In this document: positions 52,900-64,000 of the stretch, piece by piece | Layout: every line of letters begins with the position of its first letter | Position numbering within the stretch: position 1 is the stretch's first letter | IMG/VR virus record: IMGVR_UViG_3300042446_000499 | Coordinates: 8,489-72,488 of that record | Direction: 5' to 3' (one strand) | DNA: 64,000 bases | Source: a virus | Translations under genes and position numbers: made by a program | Notes under the pieces: generated by a model | Seen by the model: the letters and a program-made list of their open reading frames with translations, nothing else | What the model was told of the DNA's origin: nothing | The model's database searches: none

Positions 52900-52942
52900 T
52901 TCATATTCCTTATGTTTGTGGGGCGTTGCCCCTGTTATTATT

Positions 52943-52984
52943 ACTTTACTTGTTGAGTGGTGTCTGCATGGGGTAGGGGGGGGG
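52943..52984 (-). promoter_or_regulatory. C-box promoter (leadered, drives DUF932-whiB)
   Basis: C9-TACCCC-20 nt-G-TAAAGT on the minus strand, abutting the helicase TGA. Confidence 0.8.
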
Positions 52985-54868
52985 TCACCCCATCATCTCC
53001 GAAAGTAGAAGGGCTGTCACACTACCTGCCTCAGCGTTCATGTCCTCTCCCCAACCATCAAGGCAAGCAGAGATAGTTTCTTGTTTAGCATTGCAGATTG
53101 CCCACATACGAGCGTCAATGGTTGGTGACTCAGTGTCAATGGCTGTCAGCCACCAAGCGACTACGGCATTCTTGACGCCATAGCGCCATGCCCTGTCCTC
53201 TGCCTGTGCACCAACGCTGGGCGACCATGGTATTTCAACCATGACCACGTGGCTGGCGACTTGAAGGTTGAGTCCTACGCTTGATGCATCGTATTGTCCA
53301 ATGAACAACCGAGCCTCTCCACTGGTGAACTTATTGACAGCGTTGTTCTTTGTTTCAGCAGTCATGCCACCAGCAACTACGACAACTCCATCGTTCTTGA
53401 AGTGCTCCTTGATGGCGTTGATTACATTGGTGTGGTACGCAAATGCAATGACTTGCTCTCCTGCCTCCAGCAATGAACGGATGTGAGCACATGCTGGCTC
53501 TACCTTTGCTTCACCAAGCAACTGCCTAAGTTTATTTATCTCTGTAATGACGGGAGCCTTGCTCGCTGCCATGTACGCATCATTGCCATAGTTCTCCATC
53601 ACCCAAGCAAGGAAATCTTCCTCAGCCTTGCGATACTTGTTCATAGATGCCTCAGACAACTCAACGTCTAACTGGGCACGTCTTTTGGGGGGAAGGTCTT
53701 CCAGTACATCCACCTTGCGTGTACGTGTGTAGACGGTGGAGCGCAGTATCTCATTTAGTTCTGATGTGTTAGAGGCTCCACTGGTGTTAGGAAACCCATT
53801 GACCATCTTGTAATCACAGTAACGGGTAAGGAACTGTCTCTTAGTACCGAACACTGGGTCAAGCCTGCCGATAATCTTCAACGGAGAAATAAACTCAGAC
53901 GGACGGTTAGGAATGATGGTTCCCGACAGCAACACGCAGTAACCATCCTTGGGAACCTGTGTAGCAATACGGGACAAGCCTTTAGTGCGATTGCTGTTCT
54001 CAGTCTTGAAACGGTGAGCCTCATCAACGACAAGGCTGGTGAACTTGCCAGCAAGGACATTCTGCCAAGCCTCAATGATGGAGTCGGGCACTAACAGCAC
54101 GTCACATTTTGGCAACTTGTATGGCTTACGACCCTTGATGGATGACACCTTGAGCCAAGGAGCAAACCTCTTTAGTTCTGCTTTCCATTGGTACACGAGG
54201 TTTGGTGGTACGGATACCATCACCTTGTGACCTTCCTTGACAGCCATATGCGCTACAGCAATGCCGATGGGCGTTTTACCAAGACCCATGTCCTGACATA
54301 CCAACGTACGGCGTGTACGGCGAACGAACTCAATGGCTGACTTCTGATAACCAAGGAGAGGTAGTTGTAGGTCAAAATCAAGGTCAAAATCCTTGGCATT
54401 TGACAAAGTAAATAAACCTCCGTCAGGGATAATCGGTGGCACCACTTTGTCTAACGTTTGTACGAACTCATCAAGTGCAGAACGCAACGCTGAAGAATAC
54501 GTAACGTCAGGTACGACAGTTACGGCAGAGCACTTATCAACGGCATGAAATGTACGCCACGCACCCTTTAGAAAGACCTTGTGCCCTGCACCAGCAAGGA
54601 CTACTTCATCACAGAGATGGCATTTACCTTTGGCAGTGTTCACAATAATGCGTGTGACTTCTTCAGGGATGTGCGCTAGCGCAGGTGTGCGCTCTACTGG
54701 CAGATATGCCAAGTAATCAAGCAATGAGGATGCTGACTTGAATGTCAGTTTCTCTAATTCCATTGCGCTAATCCAGTTGTCAATGCACCCAACCATTTCT
54801 AGTGGGCTGGTACGTTGTTCTAACGCATCATGTATGTCACGTTGTTGCCTTGGTGTAATTCCGTTCAT
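52985..54868 (-). CDS. SNF2-family helicase (HARP/SMARCAL1-like)
   Basis: DMGLGKT, DEAH, LSGT, VGLNL and QAEDRA.R.G motifs; leaderless start. Confidence 0.9.
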   Translation of the reverse strand: MNGITPRQQRDIHDALEQRTSPLEMVGCIDNWISAMELEKLTFKSASSLLDYLAYLPVERTPALAHIPEEVTRIIVNTAKGKCHLCDEVVLAGAGHKVFLKGAWRTFHAVDKCSAVTVVPDVTYSSALRSALDEFVQTLDKVVPPIIPDGGLFTLSNAKDFDLDFDLQLPLLGYQKSAIEFVRRTRRTLVCQDMGLGKTPIGIAVAHMAVKEGHKVMVSVPPNLVYQWKAELKRFAPWLKVSSIKGRKPYKLPKCDVLLVPDSIIEAWQNVLAGKFTSLVVDEAHRFKTENSNRTKGLSRIATQVPKDGYCVLLSGTIIPNRPSEFISPLKIIGRLDPVFGTKRQFLTRYCDYKMVNGFPNTSGASNTSELNEILRSTVYTRTRKVDVLEDLPPKRRAQLDVELSEASMNKYRKAEEDFLAWVMENYGNDAYMAASKAPVITEINKLRQLLGEAKVEPACAHIRSLLEAGEQVIAFAYHTNVINAIKEHFKNDGVVVVAGGMTAETKNNAVNKFTSGEARLFIGQYDASSVGLNLQVASHVVMVEIPWSPSVGAQAEDRAWRYGVKNAVVAWWLTAIDTESPTIDARMWAICNAKQETISACLDGWGEDMNAEAGSVTALLLSEMMG

Positions 54869-54874
54869 GCCGAT

Positions 54875-54915
54875 ACCTTAGTTCTTAGTGGTGTTGTCCA
54901 TGGGGTAGGGGGGGG
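54875..54915 (-). promoter_or_regulatory. C-box promoter (leaderless, helicase)
   Basis: C8-TACCCC-20 nt-C-TAAGGT-6 nt-ATG 54868. Confidence 0.85.
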
Positions 54916-54948
54916 TACCCCATGGAGGTGGGGTGCCAATACTACAGT
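54916..54948 (+). promoter_or_regulatory. Divergent half C-box promoter (leaderless)
   Basis: TACCCC-20 nt-C-TACAGT-6 nt-ATG 54955; the upstream C run is replaced by G8. Confidence 0.7.
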
Positions 54949-54954
54949 GGGGTT

Positions 54955-55152
54955 ATGAAAAGCAACACATTCACGATTGACGAATACGTAGGTCTACCTG
55001 AAATCCTAAGAGCACTAGAGGCATTAGAGTCAGTTACCTACACCCATAAACAAGCAAATACGTACAATACACCTAATGACACAGATGCATTGTGGGAACA
55101 CATAAATGATGCTCTACACGTTGTAGAGAAAATAAAAGAAACAAGGAAATAA
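54955..55152 (+). CDS. Small early protein
   Basis: Start reassigned to ATG 54955 from promoter geometry. Confidence 0.6.
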   Translation: MKSNTFTIDEYVGLPEILRALEALESVTYTHKQANTYNTPNDTDALWEHINDALHVVEKIKETRK

Positions 55153-55156
55153 CAAC

Positions 55157-55696
55157 ATGCCAAACTGGACAAACAACTGTCTCTCTGTAGAGGGAGACGA
55201 CCAAGAAGTACAAGACTTCATCAACAAAGTAACGACAGAGGGTGACGACACTTACTCAATTCTCAACACGCTACTACCCACACCCACAGACCTCGGTGAC
55301 GATGGTTGGTACAACTGGAACATATCTAACTGGGGAACCAAATGGCAAGATAGTGATACTACTCTTGTTATTCGTGATAAGGGTTACGTGTTTTTTAGAT
55401 TTGATACTGCATGGGCACCACCACTAGTAGGTTTTGAGTCCATTTCAGTTATGTTCCCTGAACTTACATTTATTATCACATATGAAGAGATGGGCATGGG
55501 CTTTGTGGGATGTGCTGGATATCTAAATGGTATTCAGGCTCATGTAGAACGTGAAGACATCTCTATCCCCGAAGAAACAGCAGATGATGACCTCATGGAC
55601 GTCATGAACGAAAGGTACACAATACTGGTAGATGATTGTGAAGCACAAGTACGCCACGCAATGAATGCCCCCCTACCCCTAGCAAAGACCCTCTAA
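55157..55696 (+). CDS. DUF1281/YubB ferredoxin-like domain protein
   Basis: MPNW..N, WY.W...NWGTKW, F.TAW.PP and Y.E.G..F.G motifs. Confidence 0.75.
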   Translation: MPNWTNNCLSVEGDDQEVQDFINKVTTEGDDTYSILNTLLPTPTDLGDDGWYNWNISNWGTKWQDSDTTLVIRDKGYVFFRFDTAWAPPLVGFESISVMFPELTFIITYEEMGMGFVGCAGYLNGIQAHVEREDISIPEETADDDLMDVMNERYTILVDDCEAQVRHAMNAPLPLAKTL

Positions 55697-55706
55697 GAAC
55701 TAAGAT
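55668..55706 (+). promoter_or_regulatory. C-box promoter (leaderless)
   Basis: Box-20 nt-C-TAAGAT-6 nt-ATG 55713. Confidence 0.85.
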
Positions 55707-55712
55707 AATGAC

Positions 55713-56036
55713 ATGACCCCACAAGAATACACAGACACATTCCATTACATCCAGCGCAACCTTGAGCAGATTACTTCATTTGCGATTGAGCATGCTATCA
55801 AGGAAAAATTACAACCCATGCTGGATGAGTACCGTAAAGAGGCAGAGACTTACCTAGACCACGGCTACGATGAACTTGACCATTGGCATGCCTTTGGTGA
55901 CAGGGTAGACCTCAACTACGTGAGCCGTAACCTTACAAACATTGTTTGCCTTGCCTATCCCGTAGTCAATGGTGTACCCAACTACGATGAGGAATATGAA
56001 ATACCCATCTCCTTTCCAGCAGACTGGAACAACTAA
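55713..56036 (+). CDS. Acidic early protein
   Basis: Leaderless ATG; ORF track. Confidence 0.65.
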   Translation: MTPQEYTDTFHYIQRNLEQITSFAIEHAIKEKLQPMLDEYRKEAETYLDHGYDELDHWHAFGDRVDLNYVSRNLTNIVCLAYPVVNGVPNYDEEYEIPISFPADWNN

Positions 56037-56248
56037 TGTCAGAACAAGATGAACAAGACTACGCCAACATGTTGGCAGACGTAGAAGAACAATACGGTGC
56101 TTCACACGATTACAAGATGGATTATCTTTCGTGGAAAGAAGATGACGAAACAGCAACCGAACAACACTACATGGCATCAGGTCAATACGAATGGAACCTA
56201 GAGCGTTATGCAGACAAACTACACCCACCCGAAGAAATGGATTTCTAA
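56036..56248 (+). CDS. Very acidic small protein
   Basis: TAATG-coupled; D/E-rich. Confidence 0.6.
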   Translation: MSEQDEQDYANMLADVEEQYGASHDYKMDYLSWKEDDETATEQHYMASGQYEWNLERYADKLHPPEEMDF

Positions 56249-56433
56249 TGAAAAAGCAATATGCAGTTTATGTAACAGAGAATGTTAGTCACATGTATGT
56301 GATTGAGGCAGAGTCAGCAGAAGAGGCAGAGAACATCTACCACTCCTATGACGATGACCAACTGAAGTCAGAAGACTGTGATGGTTCCGTAGGATGGGAC
56401 AGCCCATGGGAAGTTGTGGAATACAGTGAATAA
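56248..56433 (+). CDS. Small acidic protein (xEAESxEEA family, paralog of 57691)
   Basis: TAATG-coupled start at 56248. Confidence 0.6.
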   Translation: MKKQYAVYVTENVSHMYVIEAESAEEAENIYHSYDDDQLKSEDCDGSVGWDSPWEVVEYSE

Positions 56434-56695
56434 CAACATTATCCAAAAGAATGACACCACGTACATGCACATTGACGATTGGTACATTGGCGTACACCTT
56501 GACCGTAATGGTGACCTTATGGTGTTCATTGACCACGAAGATGGGAAAGTAGTGGAGTACAACGAAGTAATTGCAGAAGACGACACTCAATGGGGTCAGG
56601 GGTTTCATGTTGTACGTGCTACACGCCCAACAAACCCCCCTACCCCACGCACAACAATGCTACGCAGTAGAGTACATGTAGAGGTAACACAATGA
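56426..56695 (+). CDS. Hypothetical early protein
   Basis: GTG overlapping the upstream gene end; ORF track 56414..56695. Confidence 0.5.
   Translation: MNNNIIQKNDTTYMHIDDWYIGVHLDRNGDLMVFIDHEDGKVVEYNEVIAEDDTQWGQGFHVVRATRPTNPPTPRTTMLRSRVHVEVTQ
56635..56673 (+). promoter_or_regulatory. C-box promoter (leadered)
   Basis: Box-20 nt-G-TAGAGT; GAGGT RBS before ATG 56692. Confidence 0.75.
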
Positions 56696-56973
56696 ATTAC
56701 AAAGGAATAAACTGCCATGTTATTTGGGGCAATGAAGACCCTGAATACTTTTACATTTCGTTTGGCACATACGATTATGAGACAGACATAAAGCATGACT
56801 CATACGGCGTAGAAGATGACAGCATCTTCTTCTATTTTGACAACAACGAACAAGAGGCTCTTCTAAAGGCTCTTACACTTGGGCAGATACTAAAAAACCC
56901 CACGTTCTCTGTATCAGATGAATGGTACATTGACTTCCCTATGGGCTATGAGTTAGTAGAGGCTGATTTCTAA
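56692..56973 (+). CDS. Acidic early protein
   Basis: RBS plus ORF; D..IFFY motif. Confidence 0.6.
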   Translation: MNYKGINCHVIWGNEDPEYFYISFGTYDYETDIKHDSYGVEDDSIFFYFDNNEQEALLKALTLGQILKNPTFSVSDEWYIDFPMGYELVEADF

Positions 56974-57158
56974 TGCACGTTACTAACTGGGCTAAGTGGA
57001 CACGTGCCAAGAAGAAAACCATTGTTGTTCTTTACACCATAGGCATTGCACTGGGTTTCACCATTGAGAAAGCCTCCATATGGTGGGGTGTGTTTGGTCT
57101 CTTCCTATGCTTCATTGGTGCATTACTGATGAACACTATTCGCCGTTATGAATGGTGA
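56973..57158 (+). CDS. Small two-TM membrane protein
   Basis: TAATG-coupled; two hydrophobic helices. Confidence 0.6.
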   Translation: MHVTNWAKWTRAKKKTIVVLYTIGIALGFTIEKASIWWGVFGLFLCFIGALLMNTIRRYEW

Positions 57159-57160
57159 GT

Positions 57161-57229
57161 CCTGTGAGGGATGCTTCGCTCCCATAGTTCGTCGTTGCCC
57201 TATGGTAGTAGCGGAGCATTCCTCAGAGG
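57161..57229 (+). other. Long RNA hairpin between cassettes
   Basis: TGAGGGATGCTTCGCT pairs with AGCGGAGCATTCCTCA (two G:U), with an inner CCATAG/CTATGG stem. Confidence 0.65.
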
Positions 57230-57234
57230 TCTTA

Positions 57235-57271
57235 CCCCTACCCCACGCAGATACACACACCAAACTAAGAT
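57235..57271 (+). promoter_or_regulatory. C-box promoter (leaderless)
   Basis: Box-20 nt-C-TAAGAT-6 nt-ATG 57278. Confidence 0.85.
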
Positions 57272-57277
57272 AAGAAC

Positions 57278-57691
57278 ATGAACGACACACAAATTACTGA
57301 AGACCAATGGGAAGCACAATACAAGCCCATTACCAACCACCTAGACGCTAACGCATCATGGAATGGCATTATGTATGAGACCTTTGGTGCCGAAGAGGAC
57401 TTCGTTCGCCAACAACCCGCCAACAACGTATGGACGTGGGTAGATGGTGATGAGGGAACATTTATTGTTGCTGGAATGGCATATGTAAATCGCATTGGTT
57501 ACTTCGTGACCAGTGAGCCATGGACTGACTATGTAGAAATACAAGTAGATGCTTACGTGTCTACTGATGATACCGAAGAACTAAGACAACGGTTACAAGA
57601 TAACCTCCTTGCGTACTTAGATGGCATGCCTGAAGACGTATTAGACAAAGTATGTCAAATAGTTATTGACACAGTAATGGAAACAAAGTAA
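57278..57691 (+). CDS. Conserved phage early protein
   Basis: YETFG.E...VWT..DGD.....G...VNRIGY..T..P motif. Confidence 0.65.
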   Translation: MNDTQITEDQWEAQYKPITNHLDANASWNGIMYETFGAEEDFVRQQPANNVWTWVDGDEGTFIVAGMAYVNRIGYFVTSEPWTDYVEIQVDAYVSTDDTEELRQRLQDNLLAYLDGMPEDVLDKVCQIVIDTVMETK

Positions 57692-57882
57692 TGCCTACAT
57701 ACACAATGACACATATCCTGATTACACAGCACATACACGAAGTAGATGCAGAGGATGAGGACACAGCACGTGCTCTATTTGAGACCAACCAGTCATGGTG
57801 CGTGGACACAAAGGAGTCACACCTAGAAACAGACGTAGTGTTAGTGACCCCCTACCCCACGCACGACCAACCCGACAACTAA
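57691..57882 (+). CDS. Small acidic protein (paralog of 56248)
   Basis: MP.Y.......EVDAEDEDTA. Confidence 0.55.
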   Translation: MPTYTMTHILITQHIHEVDAEDEDTARALFETNQSWCVDTKESHLETDVVLVTPYPTHDQPDN

Positions 57883-57885
57883 GAT
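57848..57885 (+). promoter_or_regulatory. C-box promoter (leadered)
   Basis: Box-20 nt-C-TAAGAT; AAGGA RBS before ATG 57919. Confidence 0.8.
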
Positions 57886-57918
57886 AACTAATAACAACCA
57901 CAACAAAAGGACAACGAC

Positions 57919-58413
57919 ATGGGATTAGACCAATACCTCTCCGCTAAGAAATACGTTTCAGGCGCAGACCACAGCAACGACACAGACAAGAACACTTTTG
58001 CTGAGATAGCAAAAGCATTGAAAGTTTCACATTTATTTATTACTGACAATATGCCATCTGCTGAAGTCACTATCAAGGTAGGACAGTGGCGCAAAGCAAA
58101 CCAAATCCACAACTGGTTTGTGAACAACGTGCAGGGTGGCGAGGACGACTGCCGTTCATATTACGTTAGCAAAGAGAACCTAGAAACATTGCTAGACCTT
58201 TGCAGGCAAGTGTACGCAAAGCGTGACAATGACTTTGCAGAAGAAGTGTTACCAACTACATCAGGTTTCTTCTTTGGTGATACCAGTTTTGATGAACATT
58301 ACTACAATGACGTTCTCTACACGGCTCTTACCCTTGAACAACTATTGAATGACCCTACTCTGTCAGACACTAGTGGATGGGCTTGGGAGTTCTCTTACCA
58401 GTCATCGTGGTGA
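57919..58413 (+). CDS. Conserved phage protein (MGLD...WRKAN.IH.WF family)
   Basis: MGLDQYL, WRKANQIHNWFV, LPT..GFFFG and Y.SSW motifs. Confidence 0.75.
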   Translation: MGLDQYLSAKKYVSGADHSNDTDKNTFAEIAKALKVSHLFITDNMPSAEVTIKVGQWRKANQIHNWFVNNVQGGEDDCRSYYVSKENLETLLDLCRQVYAKRDNDFAEEVLPTTSGFFFGDTSFDEHYYNDVLYTALTLEQLLNDPTLSDTSGWAWEFSYQSSW

Positions 58414-58451
58414 CCCCCTACCCCTAGGAGAGACACCCAAACAACTAAGAT
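58414..58451 (+). promoter_or_regulatory. C-box promoter
   Basis: TGA-box-20 nt-C-TAAGAT-6 nt-GTG 58458. Confidence 0.85.
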
Positions 58452-58516
58452 GTGGGAGTGGAGAAACTGGCTGACAGGCGAAGACTCCACACCTATCTCA
58501 ACACAAAGGCAACAAC

Positions 58517-58762
58517 ATGAACACACTGAAACACATAGAACACTTCAACCCAACCATACGGGGACTCGCTGGTAAGACCATCAAGAGAGTTCGCCACATG
58601 GTAGAAGAAGAAGTCAATGGCATGGGCTGGTACCAACGTGCACACAACAATGCTTACGTCAATACCATCGTTATTGAGTTCACAGACAACACATACGCCA
58701 TCGTCAGTTCAGACCAAGAGGGAAACGATGCAGGACACCTAATTGTAGAGGACTACGAATGA
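58517..58762 (+). CDS. Hypothetical early protein
   Basis: GKTI..VR...S.D.EGN..G motif. Confidence 0.6.
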   Translation: MNTLKHIEHFNPTIRGLAGKTIKRVRHMVEEEVNGMGWYQRAHNNAYVNTIVIEFTDNTYAIVSSDQEGNDAGHLIVEDYE

Positions 58763-58998
58763 GCGACATTATTATTATTGACATGGTGACAGGCACAGTC
58801 CTCAACTATGACCCACAAGTAGTTGTGGTAGACACCGACACACTAGATGACTATGAACAGAAACTATTGGACGAATGGTATGAGTGTGGTAACGACTCTA
58901 TTATTGTTGAGTTAGGCGCTCTTACAGGAACATCCATCACCAAGTACAACACCCCTACCCCTAGCAAGCGCACGTGGTGGGCTAAGGTGAAGTCATGA
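58759..58998 (+). CDS. Hypothetical early protein
   Basis: GAGG RBS; ATGA overlap. Confidence 0.55.
   Translation: MSDIIIIDMVTGTVLNYDPQVVVVDTDTLDDYEQKLLDEWYECGNDSIIVELGALTGTSITKYNTPTPSKRTWWAKVKS
58952..58988 (+). promoter_or_regulatory. C-box promoter (leaderless)
   Basis: Box-20 nt-C-TAAGGT-6 nt-ATG 58995. Confidence 0.85.
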
Positions 58999-59441
58999 GC
59001 AACAACGACATAACAATTACAACACCAAGTGGAACTATCCACATTCAACCACGCACGTGGTCTAGGCACACAACATCCTTTCGCATGAACGTACGCCCAC
59101 GTATCTCTGTGTGGGGTGACGAAGGCGTAGAGACTGTCTTAGATAATCTCAATAATCGCACACGCCGTCCCTATGTTGAGTACAAGAAACACGCACTACG
59201 CATCCTTGCTGAAGCAGGACTAGCATTTGACGGTTCTAGGATGCAATGGAACCAATACGCATACTGCCGTTGCCCATGTTCCCCAGCGTTCGTAGCGCCT
59301 AAGCAACACCTCACATACAACGACATCACATACACACAGTATGACCTTGCTATCAAGATAAATAACCTAGGCAACGTGGACTACACGAAGCAAGGCAGGT
59401 TCTACGATGACCCCCTACCCCTAGCAACAACATCACAATGA
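58995..59441 (+). CDS. Hypothetical protein with a W.Q.A.C.C.CSP motif
   Basis: Leaderless start; ORF track. Confidence 0.65.
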   Translation: MSNNDITITTPSGTIHIQPRTWSRHTTSFRMNVRPRISVWGDEGVETVLDNLNNRTRRPYVEYKKHALRILAEAGLAFDGSRMQWNQYAYCRCPCSPAFVAPKQHLTYNDITYTQYDLAIKINNLGNVDYTKQGRFYDDPLPLATTSQ

Positions 59442-59448
59442 CTAAGAT
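59411..59448 (+). promoter_or_regulatory. C-box promoter (leaderless)
   Basis: Box-20 nt-C-TAAGAT-6 nt-ATG 59455. Confidence 0.85.
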
Positions 59449-59454
59449 AAAGCC

Positions 59455-59697
59455 ATGACAACGATAATCAACCCCAACTCACAAGACCCAATTACACGTA
59501 TCAACGTCATGCGTGTGTTCACATATGACGTGGAAGAGATAGTACGCACCATACACGAAGACAACAGAGGTGATGCTGACATTGAAGTCACTTATGACGA
59601 TGTCATGGAGTACGTGGAAACATTGGTAGAAGACGACTTTCGTAGCAACGGTATGAAAGACCTTATCTTCACAGACCAAGACGGTGACCACCTCTAA
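59455..59697 (+). CDS. Acidic early protein
   Basis: Leaderless start; stop abuts the next box. Confidence 0.65.
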   Translation: MTTIINPNSQDPITRINVMRVFTYDVEEIVRTIHEDNRGDADIEVTYDDVMEYVETLVEDDFRSNGMKDLIFTDQDGDHL

Positions 59698-59734
59698 CCC
59701 CTACCCCATGCACACCACCTCTAACAACTAAGAT
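59698..59734 (+). promoter_or_regulatory. C-box promoter (leaderless)
   Basis: Box-20 nt-C-TAAGAT-6 nt-ATG 59741. Confidence 0.85.
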
Positions 59735-59740
59735 GGCATT

Positions 59741-60133
59741 ATGACAACGACACAAATAACAGAGACAGGCAAGACCAACGACAAGTGCGATGGTTGTAAC
59801 GACTATGACAACGATGCAAAGCATCCACTAACAAAGCGTACGTGGACTCATTATGACTACGATACTGGCTGGGCATATGAAGAGGGCGAGCGTGTAAGAG
59901 GACGTTATTGCCCATCGTGCCTAACATCCATCGTGCTCATTGAGACTTCACACGCTGAGGAAGAAGAGAACGAACAAGAGCCTACGCTAGAAGACTGGGC
60001 AGAACTGGCTTGTCGGTTGGCAATGGGCATGACACGTGCGTTCAGCAACTGGAAAGACGTGTCAAGCGTAACCAAGCGTGAGATGAAAATGCTCACAGAA
60101 CAAATGGGCGAAGACTGGCAACGCAAGTGGTGA
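59741..60133 (+). CDS. Early protein with two CxxC
   Basis: CDGC...CPSC. Confidence 0.65.
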   Translation: MTTTQITETGKTNDKCDGCNDYDNDAKHPLTKRTWTHYDYDTGWAYEEGERVRGRYCPSCLTSIVLIETSHAEEEENEQEPTLEDWAELACRLAMGMTRAFSNWKDVSSVTKREMKMLTEQMGEDWQRKW

Positions 60134-60171
60134 CCCCCTACCCCATGCACACCACCCACAACAACTAAAGT
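60134..60171 (+). promoter_or_regulatory. C-box promoter (leaderless)
   Basis: Box-20 nt-C-TAAAGT-6 nt-ATG 60178. Confidence 0.85.
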
Positions 60172-60177
60172 AGAACT

Positions 60178-60588
60178 ATGAGCAACGACATAACAACCAA
60201 ATACGAACTGACCAACCAATGCACGTGTGACAACGAAGCCGACTACACAAGTTGTTACGGCTATTGTTGGGAGGACAACGTCAATGACTTCTACAACGTC
60301 AATGAGAAGTTTCTCAACAGCAATGACACAGGCTGGTGGAGAGTGACCAACATAGGACTATGGGATGGTAACCATAGCGGATACTTCTACGTTCAACCCA
60401 CAGACAAACCGTGGGTAGAGGCACAGAACATTGTGGCTGGCATGACCGTGAACAGCGACTGGATGATGCGCTACACGCCATACGATGACCGTATTGAGTA
60501 TTCCCTATCGCACCACGACAGCATGGGCAGTAACACTACCCTGACTGCCGTATCAGAGGAAGAGCGTGAGGAACTAGGTCTCTACTGA
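60178..60588 (+). CDS. Hypothetical early protein
   Basis: Leaderless start; GLW.G...G and SHHD motifs. Confidence 0.65.
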   Translation: MSNDITTKYELTNQCTCDNEADYTSCYGYCWEDNVNDFYNVNEKFLNSNDTGWWRVTNIGLWDGNHSGYFYVQPTDKPWVEAQNIVAGMTVNSDWMMRYTPYDDRIEYSLSHHDSMGSNTTLTAVSEEEREELGLY

Positions 60589-60626
60589 CCCCCTACCCCA
60601 CGCAGACAACAACAAGAAAGTAAGAT
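60589..60626 (+). promoter_or_regulatory. C-box promoter (leaderless)
   Basis: Box-20 nt-G-TAAGAT-6 nt-ATG 60633. Confidence 0.85.
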
Positions 60627-60632
60627 AAGAAC

Positions 60633-60860
60633 ATGAACAACGAAACAACAACAACACCACCACGACTAACGGGAATATCTTTCCATGACGTGGAGACATC
60701 ACACATCTCTACTGACGTTAGAGACTTTGGCAACTTTGCTATCGTCACTATCAACATAGGTAAGGCAGACATCTCATTCTTCACTACAAACATTCAAGAG
60801 GCACACTCCATCATGACGGCGCTGAGTAGGTACACCACGCACCAATGCCAAGACCAATAA
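60633..60860 (+). CDS. Small early protein
   Basis: Leaderless start; ORF track. Confidence 0.6.
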   Translation: MNNETTTTPPRLTGISFHDVETSHISTDVRDFGNFAIVTINIGKADISFFTTNIQEAHSIMTALSRYTTHQCQDQ

Positions 60861-60863
60861 AGT

Positions 60864-61110
60864 TCTTAGGGCGATACAAACCCCTAAGACCTCCCACAGC
60901 CGACCTAGAGGTTGTGGGAGGTATGGTAACTAGGTACAGGCAGAATATCGCCTGAGTAAGTCATACGTTAGGGCGTGACGAGAGATATTCACCTAACATC
61001 CCATTTGCTGGCAGGGAGGATAAAGTGTCAGCCTGACAAGTATGGTCAGATAATACGAGGGTGGCAGGTAGAGCCACCAATGGTCACGCAGACGAAGTGT
61101 GAAACATACG
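60864..61110 (+). ncRNA. Candidate structured RNA with tandem pseudoknots
   Basis: No ORF in the track; eight hairpins, four of which have loops complementary to downstream segments. Confidence 0.55.
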
Positions 61111-61115
61111 ACTAT

Positions 61116-61154
61116 CCCCCCTACCCCACGCACGACCACTACAACAACTAAGGT
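61116..61154 (+). promoter_or_regulatory. C-box promoter (leaderless)
   Basis: Box-20 nt-C-TAAGGT-6 nt-ATG 61161. Confidence 0.85.
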
Positions 61155-61160
61155 AAGAGT

Positions 61161-61499
61161 ATGACAACGACAATGACACGCTATGAAGTAAAGATAGAGT
61201 ATTCCCTAATCGTCACAGGCGACTGGGTACGCTTCATGAAGAACAACGATGGTACTCGCCACTGGGCTGGGGAGTACGACACACACAACAACTCCACAGG
61301 CGATGGTGACCTATGGTTCAGGTATGAGAACGGTGACATTCTCACATACGACACAGAGACACTACTACGTGGACTCAGGTTGTATGCACTGGCACACTCA
61401 CAGGAAGAGACACAAGAACTCATACGCATGGAGTCAGACTCACATGAGCGTAACTACGTGTGGCAGTACGGTTTCTTTGGTGACGTGCAATACTCATGA
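61161..61499 (+). CDS. Early protein, paralog of 62580
   Basis: C-terminal V.QY...G.V.Y motif shared with 62580. Confidence 0.65.
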   Translation: MTTTMTRYEVKIEYSLIVTGDWVRFMKNNDGTRHWAGEYDTHNNSTGDGDLWFRYENGDILTYDTETLLRGLRLYALAHSQEETQELIRMESDSHERNYVWQYGFFGDVQYS

Positions 61500-61537
61500 C
61501 CCCCTATCCCACGCACACAACTGACAACGACTAAGGT
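61500..61537 (+). promoter_or_regulatory. C-box promoter variant (CCCCCTATCCC, leaderless)
   Basis: One mismatch in the box; same spacing to TAAGGT and ATG 61544. Confidence 0.8.
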
Positions 61538-61543
61538 ACAGAT

Positions 61544-61918
61544 ATGACAACGAACAAGACCCAAACCCCCAAGATTATCTACGACTACTGCAATGGCGAA
61601 CGTGTAACATTCACGCTCAATAAGAATGCTGGTTACGGCTGGTCTATGGGACGTGCCTACAATACCACTATCGCTGGAGAGCATTGGACTATCGGAGAGG
61701 TGGCAGACGCTGATGAGTATTATGACGACACCACCACCACCTACGGGACACGCTGGGAACTAGACGGCGACAGGTCACGCTACGACAACGGCAACCCCAT
61801 TGACTACGACACATACAACGATTGCCCTGACGATGCTGTGCGCTGGCTGTGCCAATGGCTGGAGGCTCACCCCCCTACCCCATGCACAGGCGACTCAACG
61901 GCTAAGGTGATTGTATGA
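61544..61918 (+). CDS. Acidic early protein
   Basis: Leaderless start; ORF track. Confidence 0.6.
   Translation: MTTNKTQTPKIIYDYCNGERVTFTLNKNAGYGWSMGRAYNTTIAGEHWTIGEVADADEYYDDTTTTYGTRWELDGDRSRYDNGNPIDYDTYNDCPDDAVRWLCQWLEAHPPTPCTGDSTAKVIV
61870..61908 (+). promoter_or_regulatory. C-box promoter (leaderless)
   Basis: Box-20 nt-C-TAAGGT-6 nt-ATG 61915. Confidence 0.85.
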
Positions 61919-62061
61919 ACAACGACAACGACTTCAGCAACGCAATGTCACGGGTACTCGCCTATGGCATTGCACGTATCAACAACATGGACATGACACA
62001 CGAAGAGGCGCTAGAACTCGCTGGTGTGCCCGACACAACAGAGGACGACACACATGACTAA
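61915..62061 (+). CDS. 48-aa early peptide (not in the ORF track)
   Basis: ATG at the predicted +1; hand translation MNNDNDFSNAMSRVLAYG...HD. Confidence 0.6.
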   Translation: MNNDNDFSNAMSRVLAYGIARINNMDMTHEEALELAGVPDTTEDDTHD

Positions 62062-62215
62062 GAAACTCACAGCCACCTGTGGACACCATGACCCACTAGG
62101 GTACTTCACTGTCTTACCATGCCACAAATGCACCGTGAAAGCACATCGCAAGGCGACACACCCCAGCACCCCTACCCCACGCACAACTACCCCGACTGGT
62201 AAAGTGAAGCCATGA
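62054..62215 (+). CDS. Small zinc-binding peptide
   Basis: GAGG RBS, ATG 62054, CGH...CHKC. Confidence 0.5.
   Translation: MTKKLTATCGHHDPLGYFTVLPCHKCTVKAHRKATHPSTPTPRTTTPTGKVKP
62169..62205 (+). promoter_or_regulatory. C-box promoter (leaderless)
   Basis: Box-20 nt-G-TAAAGT-6 nt-ATG 62212. Confidence 0.85.
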
Positions 62216-62535
62216 CAACGACACAGACATTCATTCACATTGCTGACAACGAAGAGGTACAGGCGCTATGCACTGACCACGGAATTGACCACGATGCATT
62301 CATTATCTATTGTGAGAACCATCACATCACCAAAGACTATGAGTCAGAGGTGTCAGGTTTCATGGACTCATACCGTGGATGCTGGCGTAACTTCCTGAAG
62401 TTTGCAGAGCACCTATTTGACGAAACGATGGACGTGCCCGACCACCTAGCGCATTACATTGACTACGAAGCATATGCACGTGACCTCCAGCATGACTACT
62501 GGGAGACCAACGGGTACGTGTTCTTCAACATCTGA
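62212..62535 (+). CDS. ardA: ArdA-like antirestriction protein (C-terminal domains)
   Basis: F.DSY.G.W.....FAE.L......P..L..YIDYEAYARDL......GYVF ArdA signature. Confidence 0.85.
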   Translation: MTTTQTFIHIADNEEVQALCTDHGIDHDAFIIYCENHHITKDYESEVSGFMDSYRGCWRNFLKFAEHLFDETMDVPDHLAHYIDYEAYARDLQHDYWETNGYVFFNI

Positions 62536-62573
62536 CCCCCTACCCCACGCAACGACACACCACACCCTAAGAT
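62536..62573 (+). promoter_or_regulatory. C-box promoter (leaderless)
   Basis: TGA-box-20 nt-C-TAAGAT-6 nt-ATG 62580. Confidence 0.85.
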
Positions 62574-62579
62574 GAGACC

Positions 62580-62972
62580 ATGACAACGACACAACACACC
62601 ACACACCACACAACACTGGCATTGCCAGTACCCACACAGGAACTCATGAGTAGCGTTCTTGGCTCAGGCTGGGACGAGGCTGGCTACGACTGGTGGCGCT
62701 CTGCCCCCATGTATGCATCAGGCTGTGATTGGGATATCACCCCATATGACCCTGACGCTATCTACGTCAAGTTGGCTATTGCTGACCCCAACACCTATGA
62801 CACGGATGAAGATGCCAAGGTAATCATGAAGGCGCTAACAGCCAATGACATCGTGAAAGGTGTGGAGGCTATCCTGAAGCAGTGCCCGTGGGTACGCTGG
62901 GATGACATGGACGCCAGTGACGGCGACATGGTGCTCCAGTACGCCATCCTCGGTGAAGTGACGTACGGATAG
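62580..62972 (+). CDS. Early protein, paralog of 61161
   Basis: DA..GD.VLQYA..GEV.YG C-terminus. Confidence 0.65.
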   Translation: MTTTQHTTHHTTLALPVPTQELMSSVLGSGWDEAGYDWWRSAPMYASGCDWDITPYDPDAIYVKLAIADPNTYDTDEDAKVIMKALTANDIVKGVEAILKQCPWVRWDDMDASDGDMVLQYAILGEVTYG

Positions 62973-62994
62973 CGACACGACACACCACACAGCA

Positions 62995-63032
62995 CCCCCT
63001 ACCCCATGCACGTGGGGAGGGTGGGCTAAGGT
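62995..63032 (+). promoter_or_regulatory. C-box promoter (leadered)
   Basis: Box-20 nt-C-TAAGGT; GAAAGGG RBS before ATG 63072. Confidence 0.8.
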
Positions 63033-63071
63033 GTGGATATCAACCAGCGCCAACTGAAAGGGCACAACGAC

Positions 63072-63344
63072 ATGGACATACATTGCAGGAATTGCGGAGA
63101 ACCTTGGGAGAACGAAACGCTCCATGAGGTGGCACAGGAGATGGGCACCACCTACTCCAAAGTCGCCAAAGACTTCAGCGCCAAAGGGTGCAAAGCCTTT
63201 GATGGCTCCGACTACGAGACCAGCCACTGCACAGCAGACAGCAGAGCAGAGGCACGTGGACTATTGGCAGACTTGCTGGGAGACGACCTAGATGGATATG
63301 CATCCACGATGGACGACCTAGAGTACATGGGATTGCTGGACTAG
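63072..63344 (+). CDS. Small early protein (MDI.C..CGEPW family)
   Basis: CRNCGEPW...GC...LLGDD.DG. Confidence 0.65.
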   Translation: MDIHCRNCGEPWENETLHEVAQEMGTTYSKVAKDFSAKGCKAFDGSDYETSHCTADSRAEARGLLADLLGDDLDGYASTMDDLEYMGLLD

Positions 63345-63359
63345 CGCGGCGACACGCCA

Positions 63360-63396
63360 CCCCTACCCCACGGACACGACACGACACGACTAAGGT
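63360..63396 (+). promoter_or_regulatory. C-box promoter (leaderless)
   Basis: Box-20 nt-C-TAAGGT-6 nt-ATG 63403. Confidence 0.85.
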
Positions 63397-63402
63397 GAAG
63401 AC

Positions 63403-64000
63403 ATGAACAACGACACGACAACACACAACACGACACGCCACTACTACATGGGTGGATACTCACTAGGTCACCATGTATGGGTGGCTGGGGAGTATTACCT
63501 AGATGTGGCTGGGAAACTGGCTGATGCTGGCTCTATGGAATTGGCTGGGCAGATGCTCCGTCAGGCTGAAGAGTCATATGCATGGGCGAATGCTTTACAG
63601 TCGGGAACCTTCCTAGAGGTGGGCGAGGATATGGTGGGCGTACGCATAGATACGCTGGATGCATGGATGCCTACTGAGCGTGTAGCAATACTGAATGCAC
63701 GTGTACGTGGTGAAACCCTGCCCCCATCCCCCTCACGTGAGCACGTGGAACTTGGTAGCCCTGAGAATGTTTCACGTGAAACATCTAGTTGCACAGTACA
63801 AGTAAATGCGGCGCCGACCCCCTACCCCATGGAGACCCCCCCTAGCGCCTACGATGGAGTTATGGAAACAACCACCACCACAGCAACAGCCATCAGCGAC
63901 ATTGTCGCCCAACTCATCACACTCATTTCCTCTCAGGTGCTCTCACAGGTCACCAGCGAGATTGAGAGCATCTGCGAAGGCATCATTGAGAATGGAGACT
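63403..64000 (+). CDS. Early ORF open to the window edge, with an internal in-frame leaderless start at 63862
   Basis: Hand translation shows no stop from 63403; 63862 minus 63403 is a multiple of 3. Confidence 0.5.
   Translation, partial: MNNDTTTHNTTRHYYMGGYSLGHHVWVAGEYYLDVAGKLADAGSMELAGQMLRQAEESYAWANALQSGTFLEVGEDMVGVRIDTLDAWMPTERVAILNARVRGETLPPSPSREHVELGSPENVSRETSSCTVQVNAAPTPYPMETPPSAYDGVMETTTTTATAISDIVAQLITLISSQVLSQVTSEIESICEGIIENGD
63768..63783. other. parS: parS centromere-like site (chromosomal ParB/Spo0J consensus)
   Basis: Perfect 16-bp palindrome TGTTTCACGTGAAACA. Confidence 0.85.
63818..63855 (+). promoter_or_regulatory. C-box promoter (leaderless)
   Basis: Box-20 nt-C-TACGAT-6 nt-ATG 63862. 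Confidence 0.8.

What the first reader, a model, noticed from the sequence alone, without database searches (positions are those of the whole stretch)
52943..64000. Array of promoter-gene cassettes built on a rigid CCCCTACCCC / TANNNT / leaderless-ATG element (21 copies)
Seen: the box C(4-9)TACCCC starts at 55668, 56635, 57235, 57848, 58414, 58952, 59411, 59698, 60134, 60589, 61116, 61500 (TATCCC variant), 61870, 62169, 62536, 62995, 63360 and 63818 on +, at 52970-52984 and 54902-54915 on -, plus a half copy at 54916. In every copy the box is followed by WNG(C/G)A, and exactly 21 nt separate its last C from a TANNNT hexamer (TAAGAT, TAAGGT, TAAAGT, TAGAGT, TACGAT, TACAGT). In 17 of 21 a start codon follows exactly 6 nt later; the other four have a short leader with an SD. 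Known: TANNNT with ATG at +1 is the actinobacterial sigma-A leaderless promoter, and this genome has a normal TTGACA version at 46932. Inference: the -35 is replaced by a C-rich box at and just upstream of the -35 position, where sigma region 4-contacting activators such as WhiB proteins bind. This suggests a dedicated phage regulon in which almost every small gene has its own promoter. I do not recognise the motif from described phage promoters.
Basis: partly seen in the sequence, partly recalled or inferred. Interest (0 to 1): 0.9.

Follow-up and report, generated by a model that had tools for sequence, protein, structure and literature searches.

The report
Private-word leaderless promoter array in lake actinophage
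An uncultured lake phage of actinobacteria puts the same rigid promoter in front of about twenty small early genes, and where the usual -35 box should be it carries a C-rich word that differs between closely related phages, so some unidentified lineage-specific factor probably steers the host RNA polymerase.

Summary
The element TA(C/T)CCC-NNGNA-N16-TANNNT occurs 21 times in the window against 0.06 expected. All copies lie in the last 11 kb of a 72.5-kb genome. A start codon follows exactly 6 nt after the -10 in 17 of 21 (16 ATG, 1 GTG).

These are most likely promoters of the host primary-sigma type that start transcription on the start codon. They drive small acidic orphan genes, an ArdA anti-restriction gene, an SNF2 helicase and a DUF932-WhiB operon.

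The main new result is comparative. Sister phages keep the same geometry, but each has its own word at -45 to -29: C-runs with or without T, CCCCATCCC|TTAGA, C-run|TYGGC, AGGATTTG|GACAA (near-canonical -35), AGGATTTG|GATGA. The spacers of orthologous promoters remain recognisable.

The word is not a cellular promoter class: 68 single scattered hits in 185,579 species genomes. No sigma, AsiA or MotA homologue was found.

A WhiB protein bound to sigma region 4 is plausible but untested. Genes move between phages at these promoters, as with T4 PeSL cassettes. An earlier report of this scan reached the same reading on a related 94.5-kb genome (e1-6022371).

The parts
54916..54957 (+). Promoter 1 ('half copy'). 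TACCCC 54916-54921, ATGGA, N16, TACAGT 54943-54948, N6, ATG 54955 (65-aa gene). The upstream C-run is replaced by the G-run shared with the divergent promoter.
55668..55715 (+). Promoter 2. Box 55668-55679, TAGCA, TAAGAT 55701, leaderless ATG 55713 (107 aa).
56635..56694 (+). Promoter 3. Box 56635-56646, ACGCA, TAGAGT 56668, 18-nt leader with GAGG, ATG 56692 (93 aa).
57235..57280 (+). Promoter 4. Box 57235-57244, ACGCA, TAAGAT 57266, leaderless ATG 57278 (137 aa).
57848..57921 (+). Promoter 5. Box 57848-57858, ACGCA, TAAGAT 57880, 33-nt leader with AAGGA, ATG 57919 (164 aa).
58414..58519 (+). Promoter 6. Box 58414-58424, TAGGA, TAAGAT 58446, GTG 58458 at the leaderless position. The GTG opens a 20-codon ORF that ends in ATGA on the ATG 58517 of an 81-aa gene.
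58952..58997 (+). Promoter 7. Box 58952-58961, TAGCA, TAAGGT 58983, leaderless ATG 58995 (148 aa).
59411..59457 (+). Promoter 8. Box 59411-59421, TAGCA, TAAGAT 59443, leaderless ATG 59455 (80 aa).
59698..59743 (+). Promoter 9. Box 59698-59707, ATGCA, TAAGAT 59729, leaderless ATG 59741 (130 aa).
60134..60180 (+). Promoter 10. Box 60134-60144, ATGCA, TAAAGT 60166, leaderless ATG 60178 (136 aa).
60589..60635 (+). Promoter 11. Box 60589-60599, ACGCA, TAAGAT 60621, leaderless ATG 60633 (75 aa). A 255-nt structured gap follows the gene.
61116..61163 (+). Promoter 12. Box 61116-61127, ACGCA, TAAGGT 61149, leaderless ATG 61161 (112 aa). This cassette sits elsewhere in L013 and L015.
61500..61546 (+). 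Promoter 13, the TATCCC variant. Box 61500-61510, ACGCA, TAAGGT 61532, leaderless ATG 61544 (124 aa).
61870..61917 (+). Promoter 14. Box 61870-61881, ATGCA, TAAGGT 61903, leaderless ATG 61915 (48 aa).
62169..62214 (+). Promoter 15. Box 62169-62178, ACGCA, TAAAGT 62200, leaderless ATG 62212 (107 aa, ArdA anti-restriction family).
62536..62582 (+). Promoter 16. Box 62536-62546, ACGCA, TAAGAT 62568, leaderless ATG 62580 (130 aa).
62995..63074 (+). Promoter 17. Box 62995-63005, ATGCA, TAAGGT 63027, 33-nt leader with AAAGGG, probable ATG 63072.
63360..63405 (+). Promoter 18. Box 63360-63369, ACGGA, TAAGGT 63391, leaderless ATG 63403. The ORF is still open at the window end.
63818..63864 (+). Promoter 19. 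Box 63818-63828, ATGGA, TACGAT 63850, ATG 63862. It lies inside, and in frame with, the ORF that starts at 63403.
54866..54915 (-). Promoter 20. Box 54915-54902, ATGGA, TAAGGT 54880-54875, leaderless ATG 54868 of the 627-aa SNF2 helicase. It stands back to back with promoter 1.
52897..52984 (-). Promoter 21. Box 52984-52970, ATGCA, TAAAGT 52948-52943, 43-nt leader with a conserved GGGGCAACGCCCC hairpin and AAGGAA, ATG 52899. It drives DUF932 (343 aa), followed by WhiB_b 51871-51506.
46932..46970 (+). Contrast: a canonical leaderless promoter, TTGACA-N18-TAGACT-N6-ATG. It heads the tightly packed gene run from the epimerase to WhiB_a (49213-49623) and Rpf.

Best explanation
The 21 elements are one class of promoters for the early, host-takeover end of the phage genome. 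The TAAGRT hexamer at -12 to -7 is a -10 element of the host primary-sigma type. Transcription starts 7 nt after its last T, on the A of the ATG, so most messages have no leader. They are translated directly, helped by an A/C-rich, unstructured start of the coding region. These steps are inferred from the sequence layout. At -45 to -29 there is no -35 hexamer. Instead there is a two-part 'private word': the box CCCCTACCCC ending at -34, then NNGNA at -33 to -29. A trans-acting factor probably reads this word while it sits on or beside sigma region 4 in the initiation complex. That would explain why the distance to the -10 never varies although the spacer sequence varies freely. Closely related phages carry different words at orthologous promoters, and the exact word is not a cellular promoter class. 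The factor is therefore more likely specified by the phage than by the host (inference). The logic would resemble T4 middle promoters, but without homologues of MotA or AsiA. Candidates, none tested: WhiB_a, which stands in an operon behind a canonical TTGACA promoter that host polymerase should read unaided; WhiB_b, which is itself under a box promoter; or a protein delivered with the DNA. As a by-product, the repeated promoters act as crossover points at which whole promoter-gene cassettes are moved, lost or replaced between related phages.
For: Repetition and rigidity: 21 copies against 0.06 expected. T-39, A-38, C-36 to -34, G-31, A-29, T-12, A-11 and T-7 are invariant. The 16-nt spacer carries little information yet never changes length.

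Leaderless layout: ATG at the predicted +1 in 16 of 21 copies. The first 27 coding nt are A 49, C 32, G 11, T 8 per cent, against A 32, T 20, G 23, C 25 for the array.

No canonical promoter at these sites: the consensus scan finds 13 sites against 16.2 expected, none at the 21. The same genome uses TTGACA-N18-TAGACT-N6-ATG at 46932 and other canonical sites.

Same geometry, other words:
- L013 (helicase 98% identical): C-runs, never TA, in 0 of 17 copies; NNGSA in 17 of 17.
- L015 (86%): C-run with T, then TYGGC in 17 of 21.
- L014 (90%): CCCCATCCC|TTAGA.
- L018 (76%): AGGATTTG|GRCAA in 11 of 11, which places TGGACA at -35 to -30.
- L017: AGGATTTG|GATGA.
- L023: AGGATTCG|TGACT.

Orthologous promoters keep recognisable spacers and start regions while the word differs, for example those of g3, g13 and DUF932.

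In relatives the pattern occurs only in this island and only on the gene strand: 11 and 12 hits, reversed-pattern control 0.

Not a cellular regulon: 68 single hits spread over unrelated phyla in 185,579 species genomes, and no genome has two.

Cargo fits early functions: ArdA, DUF1281-like and acidic orphans that are not paralogues.

WhiB_a and WhiB_b are bona fide Wbl proteins. WhiB_b diverges faster than its neighbours: 79/61/56% identity, against 88/85/81% for DUF932.
Against: There are no transcript data, so no start site, timing or dependence on any factor is shown. No RNA run was listed.

Many actinobacterial promoters work with a -10 alone (textbook knowledge, recalled). The box may therefore not be needed for initiation.

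ArdA-type functions are expected immediately after entry. That fits poorly with dependence on a newly made phage protein, unless the factor is injected.

No candidate reader co-varies convincingly with the word. Both WhiB genes occur in every lineage. The C-terminal tail of WhiB_b is nearly identical in L013 and L014, which have different words. The C-terminal HGSWIRYRQGC.C motif of WhiB_a is conserved across lineages with different words.

In L013 the box is heterogeneous (C8-9, or C4-5 T C5-6). This looks more like a requirement for a C-run than for a precise word.

In L013 the same discriminator AGAGAC recurs in 7 of 17 promoters. Homogenisation among copies therefore occurs, and it could explain part of the within-genome uniformity without any co-evolving reader.

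The genome is only about 77% complete, and the host is unknown.
Confidence: 0.55

Rival explanations
1. The promoters are -10-only promoters that host polymerase reads unaided as immediate-early promoters. The box is an operator for a phage repressor that shuts the early genes off later. It may also be a roadblock that insulates each cassette from read-through.
For: The cargo looks immediate-early: ArdA and small acidic orphans. More distant relatives (helicase 51% identical) have, in the same region, a palindrome ATGTTCCACGTGGAACAT at variable distance (5, 7 or 17 nt) from a TGC-extended -10. That is the classical look of an operator. In L018 the word contains a near-canonical -35, so those promoters should fire without help, and the extra conserved AGGATT would then be an operator. 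There are no terminators between cassettes, so some insulation would be useful.
Against: An operator does not need single-base precision. Yet the distance to the -10 is invariant in 21 of 21, 17 of 17, 21 of 21 and 11 of 11 copies, while the spacers have diverged freely. The word is asymmetric and always in the sense of the gene. The box promoters lack both a -35 and a TGn extension, whereas the other promoters seen in this family have one or the other.
Confidence: 0.2
2. The box is read by a host component, such as an alternative or group-2 sigma, a host Wbl protein or another host activator. The different words then reflect different host species.
For: This would allow expression at time zero without any phage protein. 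No sigma, AsiA or MotA homologue was found in the phage or in the complete relative G001. The -10 is of the host type.
Against: The exact word with its -10 is not repeated in any of 185,579 species genomes: 68 single hits, of which 2 are in actinobacterial records and unrelated to the phage. At least six words occur among phages whose helicases are 76-98% identical. That is more variety than a conserved host factor would be expected to show. Only the window's own variant was scanned, and the host genome may not be in the collection.
Confidence: 0.15
3. In this lineage the box (CTACCCC) is a half-site for the phage replication initiator, the HTH_36 protein at 25410-26039. The origin iterons inside that gene read GGGTAG-N8-CTACCC. 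This would couple early transcription to replication.
For: Four inverted repeats GGGTAG-N8-CTACC(C) lie at 25866-25955. The box core in the window is CTACCCC in 20 of 21 copies. The divergent promoter pair forms GGGGTAG-G7-TACCCC.
Against: The relative G001 keeps the same iterons (GGGTAGC-N6-GCTACCC, four copies). Yet its promoter word is C-run-T-C-run|TCGGC, with TA in only 2 or 3 of 21 copies. So there is no co-variation, and the initiator cannot be the general reader of the class. A single half-site would bind a dimeric protein weakly.
Confidence: 0.05
4. The repeats exist mainly as recombination sites for shuffling gene cassettes, and the box itself has no role in transcription.
For: Rearrangements between the window, L013 and L015 have their breakpoints inside the promoter elements: the g18 cassette moved, g16 is missing, g19 and g20 are swapped. 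One metagenome contig joins promoter 60134 to the DUF932 leader.
Against: Recombination needs only similarity, not fixed geometry with a -10 and a start codon. No integrase or other site-specific recombinase was seen among the about 80 proteins scanned. Shuffling at promoters is known as a by-product of repeated promoters in T4-type phages (PMC2839356, abstract).
Confidence: 0.05

Closest known systems
T4 middle promoters read by MotA/AsiA, 'sigma appropriation' (Hinton 2010, PMC2988021; passages read)
   Same: A host-type -10 element is kept. The -35 hexamer is replaced by a phage-specific box at a fixed distance upstream. Dozens of copies occur in one genome. No phage RNA polymerase or sigma is needed.
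   Different: No AsiA or MotA (MotCF) homologue was found in the phage or in its complete relative. The box lies further upstream (-45 to -29, against a MotA box centred at -30) and is C-rich. The messages are leaderless. Each related lineage has its own word. The genes look early rather than middle. The review states that no sigma appropriation is known outside T4-type phages.
Actinobacterial leaderless promoters of the primary sigma factor (TANNNT with the start codon at +1; general knowledge, recalled)
   Same: TANNNT hexamer, with an A/G start codon 6 nt after it. There is no Shine-Dalgarno sequence. The same genome has canonical examples (TTGACA-N18-TAGACT-N6-ATG at 46932).
   Different: The -35 position holds a rigid C-rich word instead of TTGACA or nothing. 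The -10 is narrower than TANNNT: TAAGAT, TAAGGT or TAAAGT in 18 of 21. Positions +4 to +27 are strongly A/C-rich.
PeSL (promoter-early stem-loop) cassettes of T4-type phages (Arbiol et al. 2010, PMC2839356; abstract and outline read)
   Same: Repeated strong early promoters flank small orphan genes in a plastic genome region. Related phages differ by insertion, loss and relocation of genes, with breakpoints in the repeated promoters.
   Different: There is no stem-loop terminator between cassettes. The promoters lack a sigma-70-like -35. The starts are leaderless. The host phylum is different. Mini-circles were not tested.
Wbl-dependent promoters (WhiB7 with its AT-hook; WhiA/WhiB complexes). 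PDB entries 7KIF, 8DY7 and 8DY9 were listed; their content is recalled, not read here.
   Same: Wbl proteins bind sigma region 4, and from there they can touch DNA just upstream of the -35. That is where the box lies. The phage encodes two Wbl proteins.
   Different: The WhiB7 site is AT-rich, whereas this box is C-rich. Neither phage protein shows an AT-hook in its sequence. No binding was shown.
Earlier report of this scan on a related 94.5-kb genome (e1-6022371)
   Same: Same phage family, same geometry, and the same conclusion that each lineage has a private word in place of the -35.
   Different: It concerns another lineage, with the word C-run|TCGGC. It is an unchecked AI report. I re-derived the comparison independently before I saw it.

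Membership tests
Primary-sigma leaderless promoter (Actinobacteria) | -10 hexamer TANNNT | tested here: met
   21 of 21 copies; T-12, A-11 and T-7 are invariant.
Primary-sigma leaderless promoter (Actinobacteria) | Start codon at the position expected for +1 (6-7 nt after the hexamer), with no Shine-Dalgarno sequence | tested here: met
   ATG in 16 and GTG in 1 of 21 copies, exactly 6 nt after the hexamer. The other 4 have SD-bearing leaders.
Primary-sigma leaderless promoter (Actinobacteria) | -35 hexamer resembling TTGACA at 16-19 bp | tested here: not met
   Positions -35 to -30 read CC(A/T)NG(C/G). The consensus scan finds none of the 21. This feature is optional in Actinobacteria (recalled).
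Primary-sigma leaderless promoter (Actinobacteria) | Transcripts begin at the A of the ATG | not testable with these tools
   No RNA run was listed.
T4-type sigma appropriation (MotA/AsiA middle promoters) | Host -10 kept, and the -35 replaced by a phage box at fixed distance | tested here: met
   Sister lineages carry other words at the same place.
T4-type sigma appropriation (MotA/AsiA middle promoters) | AsiA-like co-activator and MotA-like activator encoded by the phage | tested here: not met
   PF09010 and PF09158 give no match at E <= 10 in G000 or in the complete relative G001. Analogues without sequence similarity are not excluded.
T4-type sigma appropriation (MotA/AsiA middle promoters) | Activity depends on the phage factors | not testable with these tools
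   This needs infection or in-vitro transcription experiments.
PeSL shuffling cassettes | Repeated early promoter next to small orphan genes in a plastic region | tested here: met
PeSL shuffling cassettes | Stem-loop terminator as part of each cassette | tested here: not met
   No terminator-like site lies between cassettes on the gene strand. There are 2 weak sites inside genes. Six upstream ORFs end flush against the box and six run through it.
PeSL shuffling cassettes | Gene gain, loss and relocation with breakpoints in the repeats | tested here: met
   Relocation of g18, absence of g16 in L015 and the g19/g20 swap have breakpoints within about 40 nt of a -10.
WhiB7-type promoters | AT-rich tract upstream of the -35, bound by an AT-hook | tested here: not met
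   The tract is C-rich, and no AT-hook motif is visible in WhiB_a or WhiB_b.
WhiB7-type promoters | A Wbl protein available to bind sigma region 4 | tested here: inconclusive
   Two Wbl genes are present. Binding to host sigma or to the box was not tested.

The most novel reading that the evidence does not exclude
A second, independent form of sigma appropriation exists outside the T4-type phages. In this family of lake actinophages a fast-evolving phage factor rides on region 4 of the host primary sigma. The factor may be a Wbl protein or a protein injected with the DNA. It reads a lineage-private word at -45 to -29. Each phage lineage would then own an orthogonal promoter code on the same host polymerase, and the words and readers would co-evolve. 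The G-run opposite the box may also be marked by the phage's own guanine modification, since a DpdA-like enzyme is encoded at 45478-46935.
Probability: 0.3. Interest if true: 0.85.

Novelty: new variant of a known kind. Interest (0 to 1): 0.65.

Why it matters
If a phage-specified factor reads the words, this would be a natural set of orthogonal promoter/reader pairs working on one host RNA polymerase. It occurs in abundant, hard-to-culture lake actinobacteria. It would also be the first sigma-appropriation-like system outside T4-type phages; the 2010 review read here says none was known.

Several lineages with different words but the same geometry give a ready-made swap experiment. The arrays also show how phages of streamlined actinobacteria organise host takeover: one promoter per small gene, leaderless messages, no terminators, and cassettes exchanged at the promoters.

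The promoters could serve as compact, strong, leaderless expression parts for Actinobacteria.

If host polymerase reads the box unaided, the finding shrinks to an unusual but ordinary early-promoter consensus.

Tried and rejected
1. RNA evidence. The look-up of sequencing runs listed 24 DNA runs from lake or freshwater metagenomes and no RNA holder, so expression could not be examined. Four DNA runs laid as contigs were almost identical to the window. The only length change was one extra G in the G-run at 54907 in 2 of 4 runs, and there was no change in any box. This says little, because contigs drop rare variants.

I used the search for related loci with an alignment instead.

3. The metagenome-contig scan returned only a copy of L014.

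4. Cultured relatives. Streptomyces phage BRock (portal 52% identical) has an array of small genes at its left end. Those genes have SD leaders and some TTGACA sites, not this layout. Only the first 40 kb of BRock were read.

5. Sigma factors. Sigma70_r2, r4 and r4_2 gave nothing. The one exception is a weak r4 hit (E 0.04, 10.9 bits) in the orthologue of g23, an acidic 103-aa array protein. I do not take it as a sigma.

6. Paralogy. The array proteins are not paralogues. One weak pair was found, g6 and g10. The repeat is therefore not a by-product of gene duplication.

7. Initiator as reader: rejected as a general explanation.

8. G-quadruplex, i-motif or mirror-repeat structures of the box: considered and dropped. 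Most copies have only two C-tracts, and CCCCTACCCC is not a mirror repeat (read directly from the sequence).

9. Rfam: no family matches in 51400-64000 at E <= 0.1.

10. Literature.
- (the 10-mer): 119 papers, none of the 20 listed on phage.
- nothing on such promoters in the listings.
- PMC8612146: none of the words promoter, sigma, early or binding motif occurs.
- PMC10202952: no mention of promoters or leaderless messages.
Supplements were not consulted. Subscription journals are not covered.

11. The host was not identified. The GC content (about 45%), the WhiB and Rpf genes and the lake origin fit low-GC freshwater Actinobacteria. The cultured Planktophila phages and their host are reported at 44.8 and 46.5% GC (PMC10202952, passage). 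This is only a fit.

12. Complex prediction and structure prediction were not used. No host sigma sequence was in hand.

Full report
WHAT THE WINDOW IS. The window is bases 8489-72488 of a 72,488-bp viral contig. CheckV rates the contig about 77% complete. It encodes an SPP1-type portal, a tail sheath, a family A DNA polymerase, DnaB, primase and RecA. It also encodes two WhiB-family proteins, an Rpf-like transglycosylase, a Dps-like ferritin and SpoVS. Its nearest cultured relatives are Streptomyces myoviruses of the BRock group, with a portal 52-53% identical. GC content is about 45%. Near-identical DNA is held by 24 lake or freshwater metagenome runs. An actinobacterial host is likely because of WhiB and Rpf. 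A low-GC freshwater one would fit, but the host was not identified.

THE OBSERVATION. The 10-mer CCCCTACCCC, with up to one mismatch, occurs 24 times against 2.08 +/- 1.55 expected. The full element TAYCCC-NNGNA-N16-TANNNT occurs 21 times against 0.06 +/- 0.24. All 21 copies lie between 52943 and 63864, the last 11 kb of the contig. The only other CCCTACCCC in the genome has no -10.
- Nineteen copies point rightwards, in front of small genes. Two point leftwards, in front of the SNF2 helicase and of a DUF932-WhiB_b pair.
- I number positions from the A of the ATG as +1. T-39, A-38, C-36 to C-34, G-31, A-29, T-12, A-11 and T-7 are then invariant. C-43 to C-40 and C-37 are present in 20 of 21. 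The 16 nt between -28 and -13 carry little information but never change in number.
- The hexamer is TAAGAT, TAAGGT or TAAAGT in 18 of 21 copies.
- ATG stands at +1 in 16 copies.
- In one copy a GTG holds that place. It opens a 20-codon ORF that ends in ATGA on the next gene's ATG.
- Four copies have leaders of 18-43 nt with a ribosome-binding site.
- The 'half copy' at 54916 is a full promoter that shares its C/G-run back to back with the helicase promoter.

ANATOMY OF THE ISLAND. The genes behind the promoters are small, mostly acidic orphans. One is an ArdA anti-restriction protein (62212-62535) and one has a DUF1281_C domain. They are not paralogues of each other, so the repeat is regulatory and not a trace of gene duplication.
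- The first 27 coding nucleotides after the ATG are 49% A and 32% C, against 32% and 25% for the array as a whole. Many genes start ATGACAACGACA or a close variant. I read this as selection for an unstructured 5' end that suits translation of leaderless messages. This is an inference, and CA-rich downstream enhancers are something I recall rather than checked.
- No terminator-like hairpins lie between cassettes.
- Six upstream ORFs end with their stop codon flush against the C-run. Six others run through the next box, which then encodes Pro-rich tails.
- A 255-nt gene-free gap at 60861-61115 folds far better than shuffles (z = -5.17) and matches no Rfam family. It belongs to another finding.

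COMPARISON WITH RELATIVES, THE KEY RESULT. I used the helicase next to the island to fetch related contigs. L012/L006 is the same phage.
- L013 (helicase 98% identical), L014 (90%) and L015 (86%; a 94.5-kb contig rated complete) have the same gene set in nearly the same order.
- They also have the same promoter geometry: a word ending 21 nt before TANNNT, then 6 nt, then ATG.
- The word differs. L013 has C8-9 or C4-5-T-C5-6, never TA (0 of 17), followed by NNG(C/G)A (17 of 17). L014 has CCCCATCCC|TTAGA. L015 has C3-6-T-C3-5 followed by T(C/T)GGC in 17 of 21.
- Orthologous promoters keep similar spacers and start regions while the word changes in the way typical of each genome. Those in front of g3, g13 and DUF932 are examples.
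- In L013 and L015 the pattern is confined to the island and to the gene strand: 12 and 11 hits, with 0 for the reversed control.
- A sister clade (helicase 76-80% identical) keeps the geometry with a quite different word. L018 has AGGATTTG|G(A/G)CAA in 11 of 11, which puts TGGACA, a 5-of-6 match to TTGACA, exactly at -35 to -30. L017 has AGGATTTG|GATGA. L023 has AGGATTCG|TGACT.
- A more distant clade (51%) uses a palindrome ATGTTCCACGTGGAACAT at variable distance from a TGC-extended -10, with SD leaders.
- BRock has none of this.

WHAT FOLLOWS FROM THE COMPARISON.
(i) The box occupies the place of a -35 element. In one lineage a near-canonical -35 is found there.
(ii) The constant distance, kept across lineages and across diverged spacers, shows that the word and the -10 are read together. 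That means the initiation complex or something fixed to it.
(iii) The word changes in concert at some twenty sites per genome between close relatives. This calls for one of two things. Either a trans-acting reader changes with the lineage, or the copies are homogenised. Some homogenisation does occur: the discriminator AGAGAC recurs in 7 of 17 L013 promoters. However, homogenising a 10-nt patch without touching the adjacent spacers is mechanistically awkward, so I favour a changing reader.
(iv) The same genome also has canonical promoters, so the host polymerase recognises ordinary -35 boxes. Examples are TTGACA-N18-TAGACT-N6-ATG at 46932, TGGACA-N18-TACAAT-N6-ATG at 50291-50330 (-10 at 50316) and TAGACA-N18-TAGGCT at 44286. 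The box promoters are therefore a separate class.

A scan of one genome for each of 185,579 prokaryote species with the window's word plus its -10 gave 68 single hits. They are spread over unrelated phyla, and no genome has two. The two hits in actinobacterial records are unrelated to the phage. This argues against a host regulon with this exact word. It does not cover degenerate variants or an unsampled host.
- The phage and its complete relative encode no recognisable sigma-70 domain, AsiA or MotA.
- The candidate regulators found are two Wbl proteins, a MerR-like protein, an HTH_36 initiator and two small winged-helix-like proteins.
- WhiB_a lies in a tightly packed gene run behind the canonical promoter at 46932. 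Host polymerase could therefore make it first, which would give a T4-like cascade.
- WhiB_b lies behind a box promoter and diverges faster than its neighbours.
- Wbl proteins bind sigma region 4, which sits exactly at the DNA in question. I recall this; PDB entries for WhiB1, WhiB3, WhiB7 and WhiB are listed.
- Against the WhiB idea: both Wbl genes occur in all lineages, and I see no residue pattern that follows the words.
It failed a co-variation test: G001 has the same origin iterons as the window but a different promoter word.

MECHANISM, WITH ODDS. I put about 0.85 on these being real promoters that give mostly leaderless messages. I put about 0.55 on the fuller statement that the word replaces the -35 and is read by a lineage-specific factor acting with the host holoenzyme, most likely phage-specified. 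The main rival (0.2) is a -10-only early promoter with the word acting as an operator for shut-off. A host-encoded reader gets 0.15. The ArdA cargo argues for immediate expression. That favours either rival, or a factor delivered with the DNA, as T4 delivers Alt (PMC2988021, passages).

CASSETTE EXCHANGE. Alignment of the island with L013 and L015 shows three rearrangements:
- the g18 cassette sits between g15 and g16/g17 in both relatives;
- g16 is absent from L015;
- g19 and g20 are swapped in L015.
Their breakpoints lie within about 40 nt of a -10 hexamer. One metagenome contig joins promoter 60134 to the leader of DUF932, on the opposite strand. Repeated promoters as crossover points are known from the PeSL cassettes of T4-type phages (PMC2839356, abstract). 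Here the stem-loop terminator is missing.

KNOWN OR NEW. By function, the closest described system is the T4 middle promoter (host -10 plus a MotA box in place of the -35). By sequence family this is not a member, because AsiA and MotA are absent. By layout the elements are actinobacterial leaderless promoters without a -35.
- My literature searches found no description of this word or of such arrays in actinophages. Supplements and subscription journals were not covered.
- The scan's own earlier reports include leaderless promoter-cassette arrays in T4-like phages.
- They also include a report on a related 94.5-kb genome with the same 'private word' reading (e1-6022371). I saw that report after making the comparison myself.
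I class the finding as a new variant of a known kind, with interest 0.65.

Noticed in passing
window 45478-46935 (+): A 485-aa protein is 29% identical over 481 residues to BRock gp36, which is annotated queuine tRNA-ribosyltransferase, and matches phrog_887. It is a DpdA-like guanine transglycosylase, so the phage DNA may carry 7-deazaguanine. The G-runs opposite the promoter boxes would then be densely modified. No preQ0 synthesis genes were looked for.
   Followed up: partly
window 60861-61115 (+): A 255-nt gene-free gap after g17 folds at -92.5 kcal/mol, against -68.2 +/- 4.7 for shuffles (z = -5.17). It has no Rfam match and is 85% identical in L015. It is probably a structured RNA transcribed from promoter 60589.
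   Followed up: partly
window 52905-52945 (-), also L013, L014, L015, L017 and L018: The 5' leader of the DUF932 gene carries a conserved hairpin (GGGGCAACGCCCC in the window, GGGGAAACAGCCCC in L018). It starts about 4 nt after the predicted transcription start and is followed by AAGGAA and the ATG.
   Followed up: no
window 63730-63785; L021 and L022: A parS-like palindrome TGTTTCACGTGAAACA lies at 63768-63783, with degenerate CACGTG sites just upstream. In relatives whose helicase is 51% identical, the related palindrome ATGTTCCACGTGGAACAT occurs 5 times per locus, directly upstream of TGC-extended -10 elements of the early genes. It looks like the regulatory word of that clade.
   Followed up: partly
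window 25866-25955 (+); L166: Four inverted repeats GGGTAG-N8-CTACCC lie inside the 3' part of the HTH_36 gene and are followed by an A-rich tract. They are conserved in the relative G001. This is probably the replication origin with initiator iterons.
   Followed up: partly
window 63403-64000 (+): The last promoter (box 63818, ATG 63862) lies inside and in frame with the ORF that starts at 63403. The same holds in L015. It could give a full-length protein and a shorter leaderless C-terminal form.
   Followed up: no
window 54900-54915: The G8/C8 run between the two divergent promoters has one extra G in contigs of 2 of the 4 metagenome runs laid. This was the only length change seen in 9.2 kb.
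   Followed up: no
window 49213-49623 (+): WhiB_a has a 60-residue C-terminal extension with the motif HGSWIRYRQGC(R/G)C..C. The motif is conserved in all seven orthologues compared and is not covered by Pfam. It may be a second metal-binding or DNA-binding module.
   Followed up: no
window 39871-44264 (+): A run of small overlapping genes includes two paralogous proteins that start MTTDHRGRPVGGNH and MGTDHKGRRIGDNH. The run also holds a 497-aa low-complexity Ala/Pro/Gly-rich protein. None has a Pfam or PHROG match.
   Followed up: no
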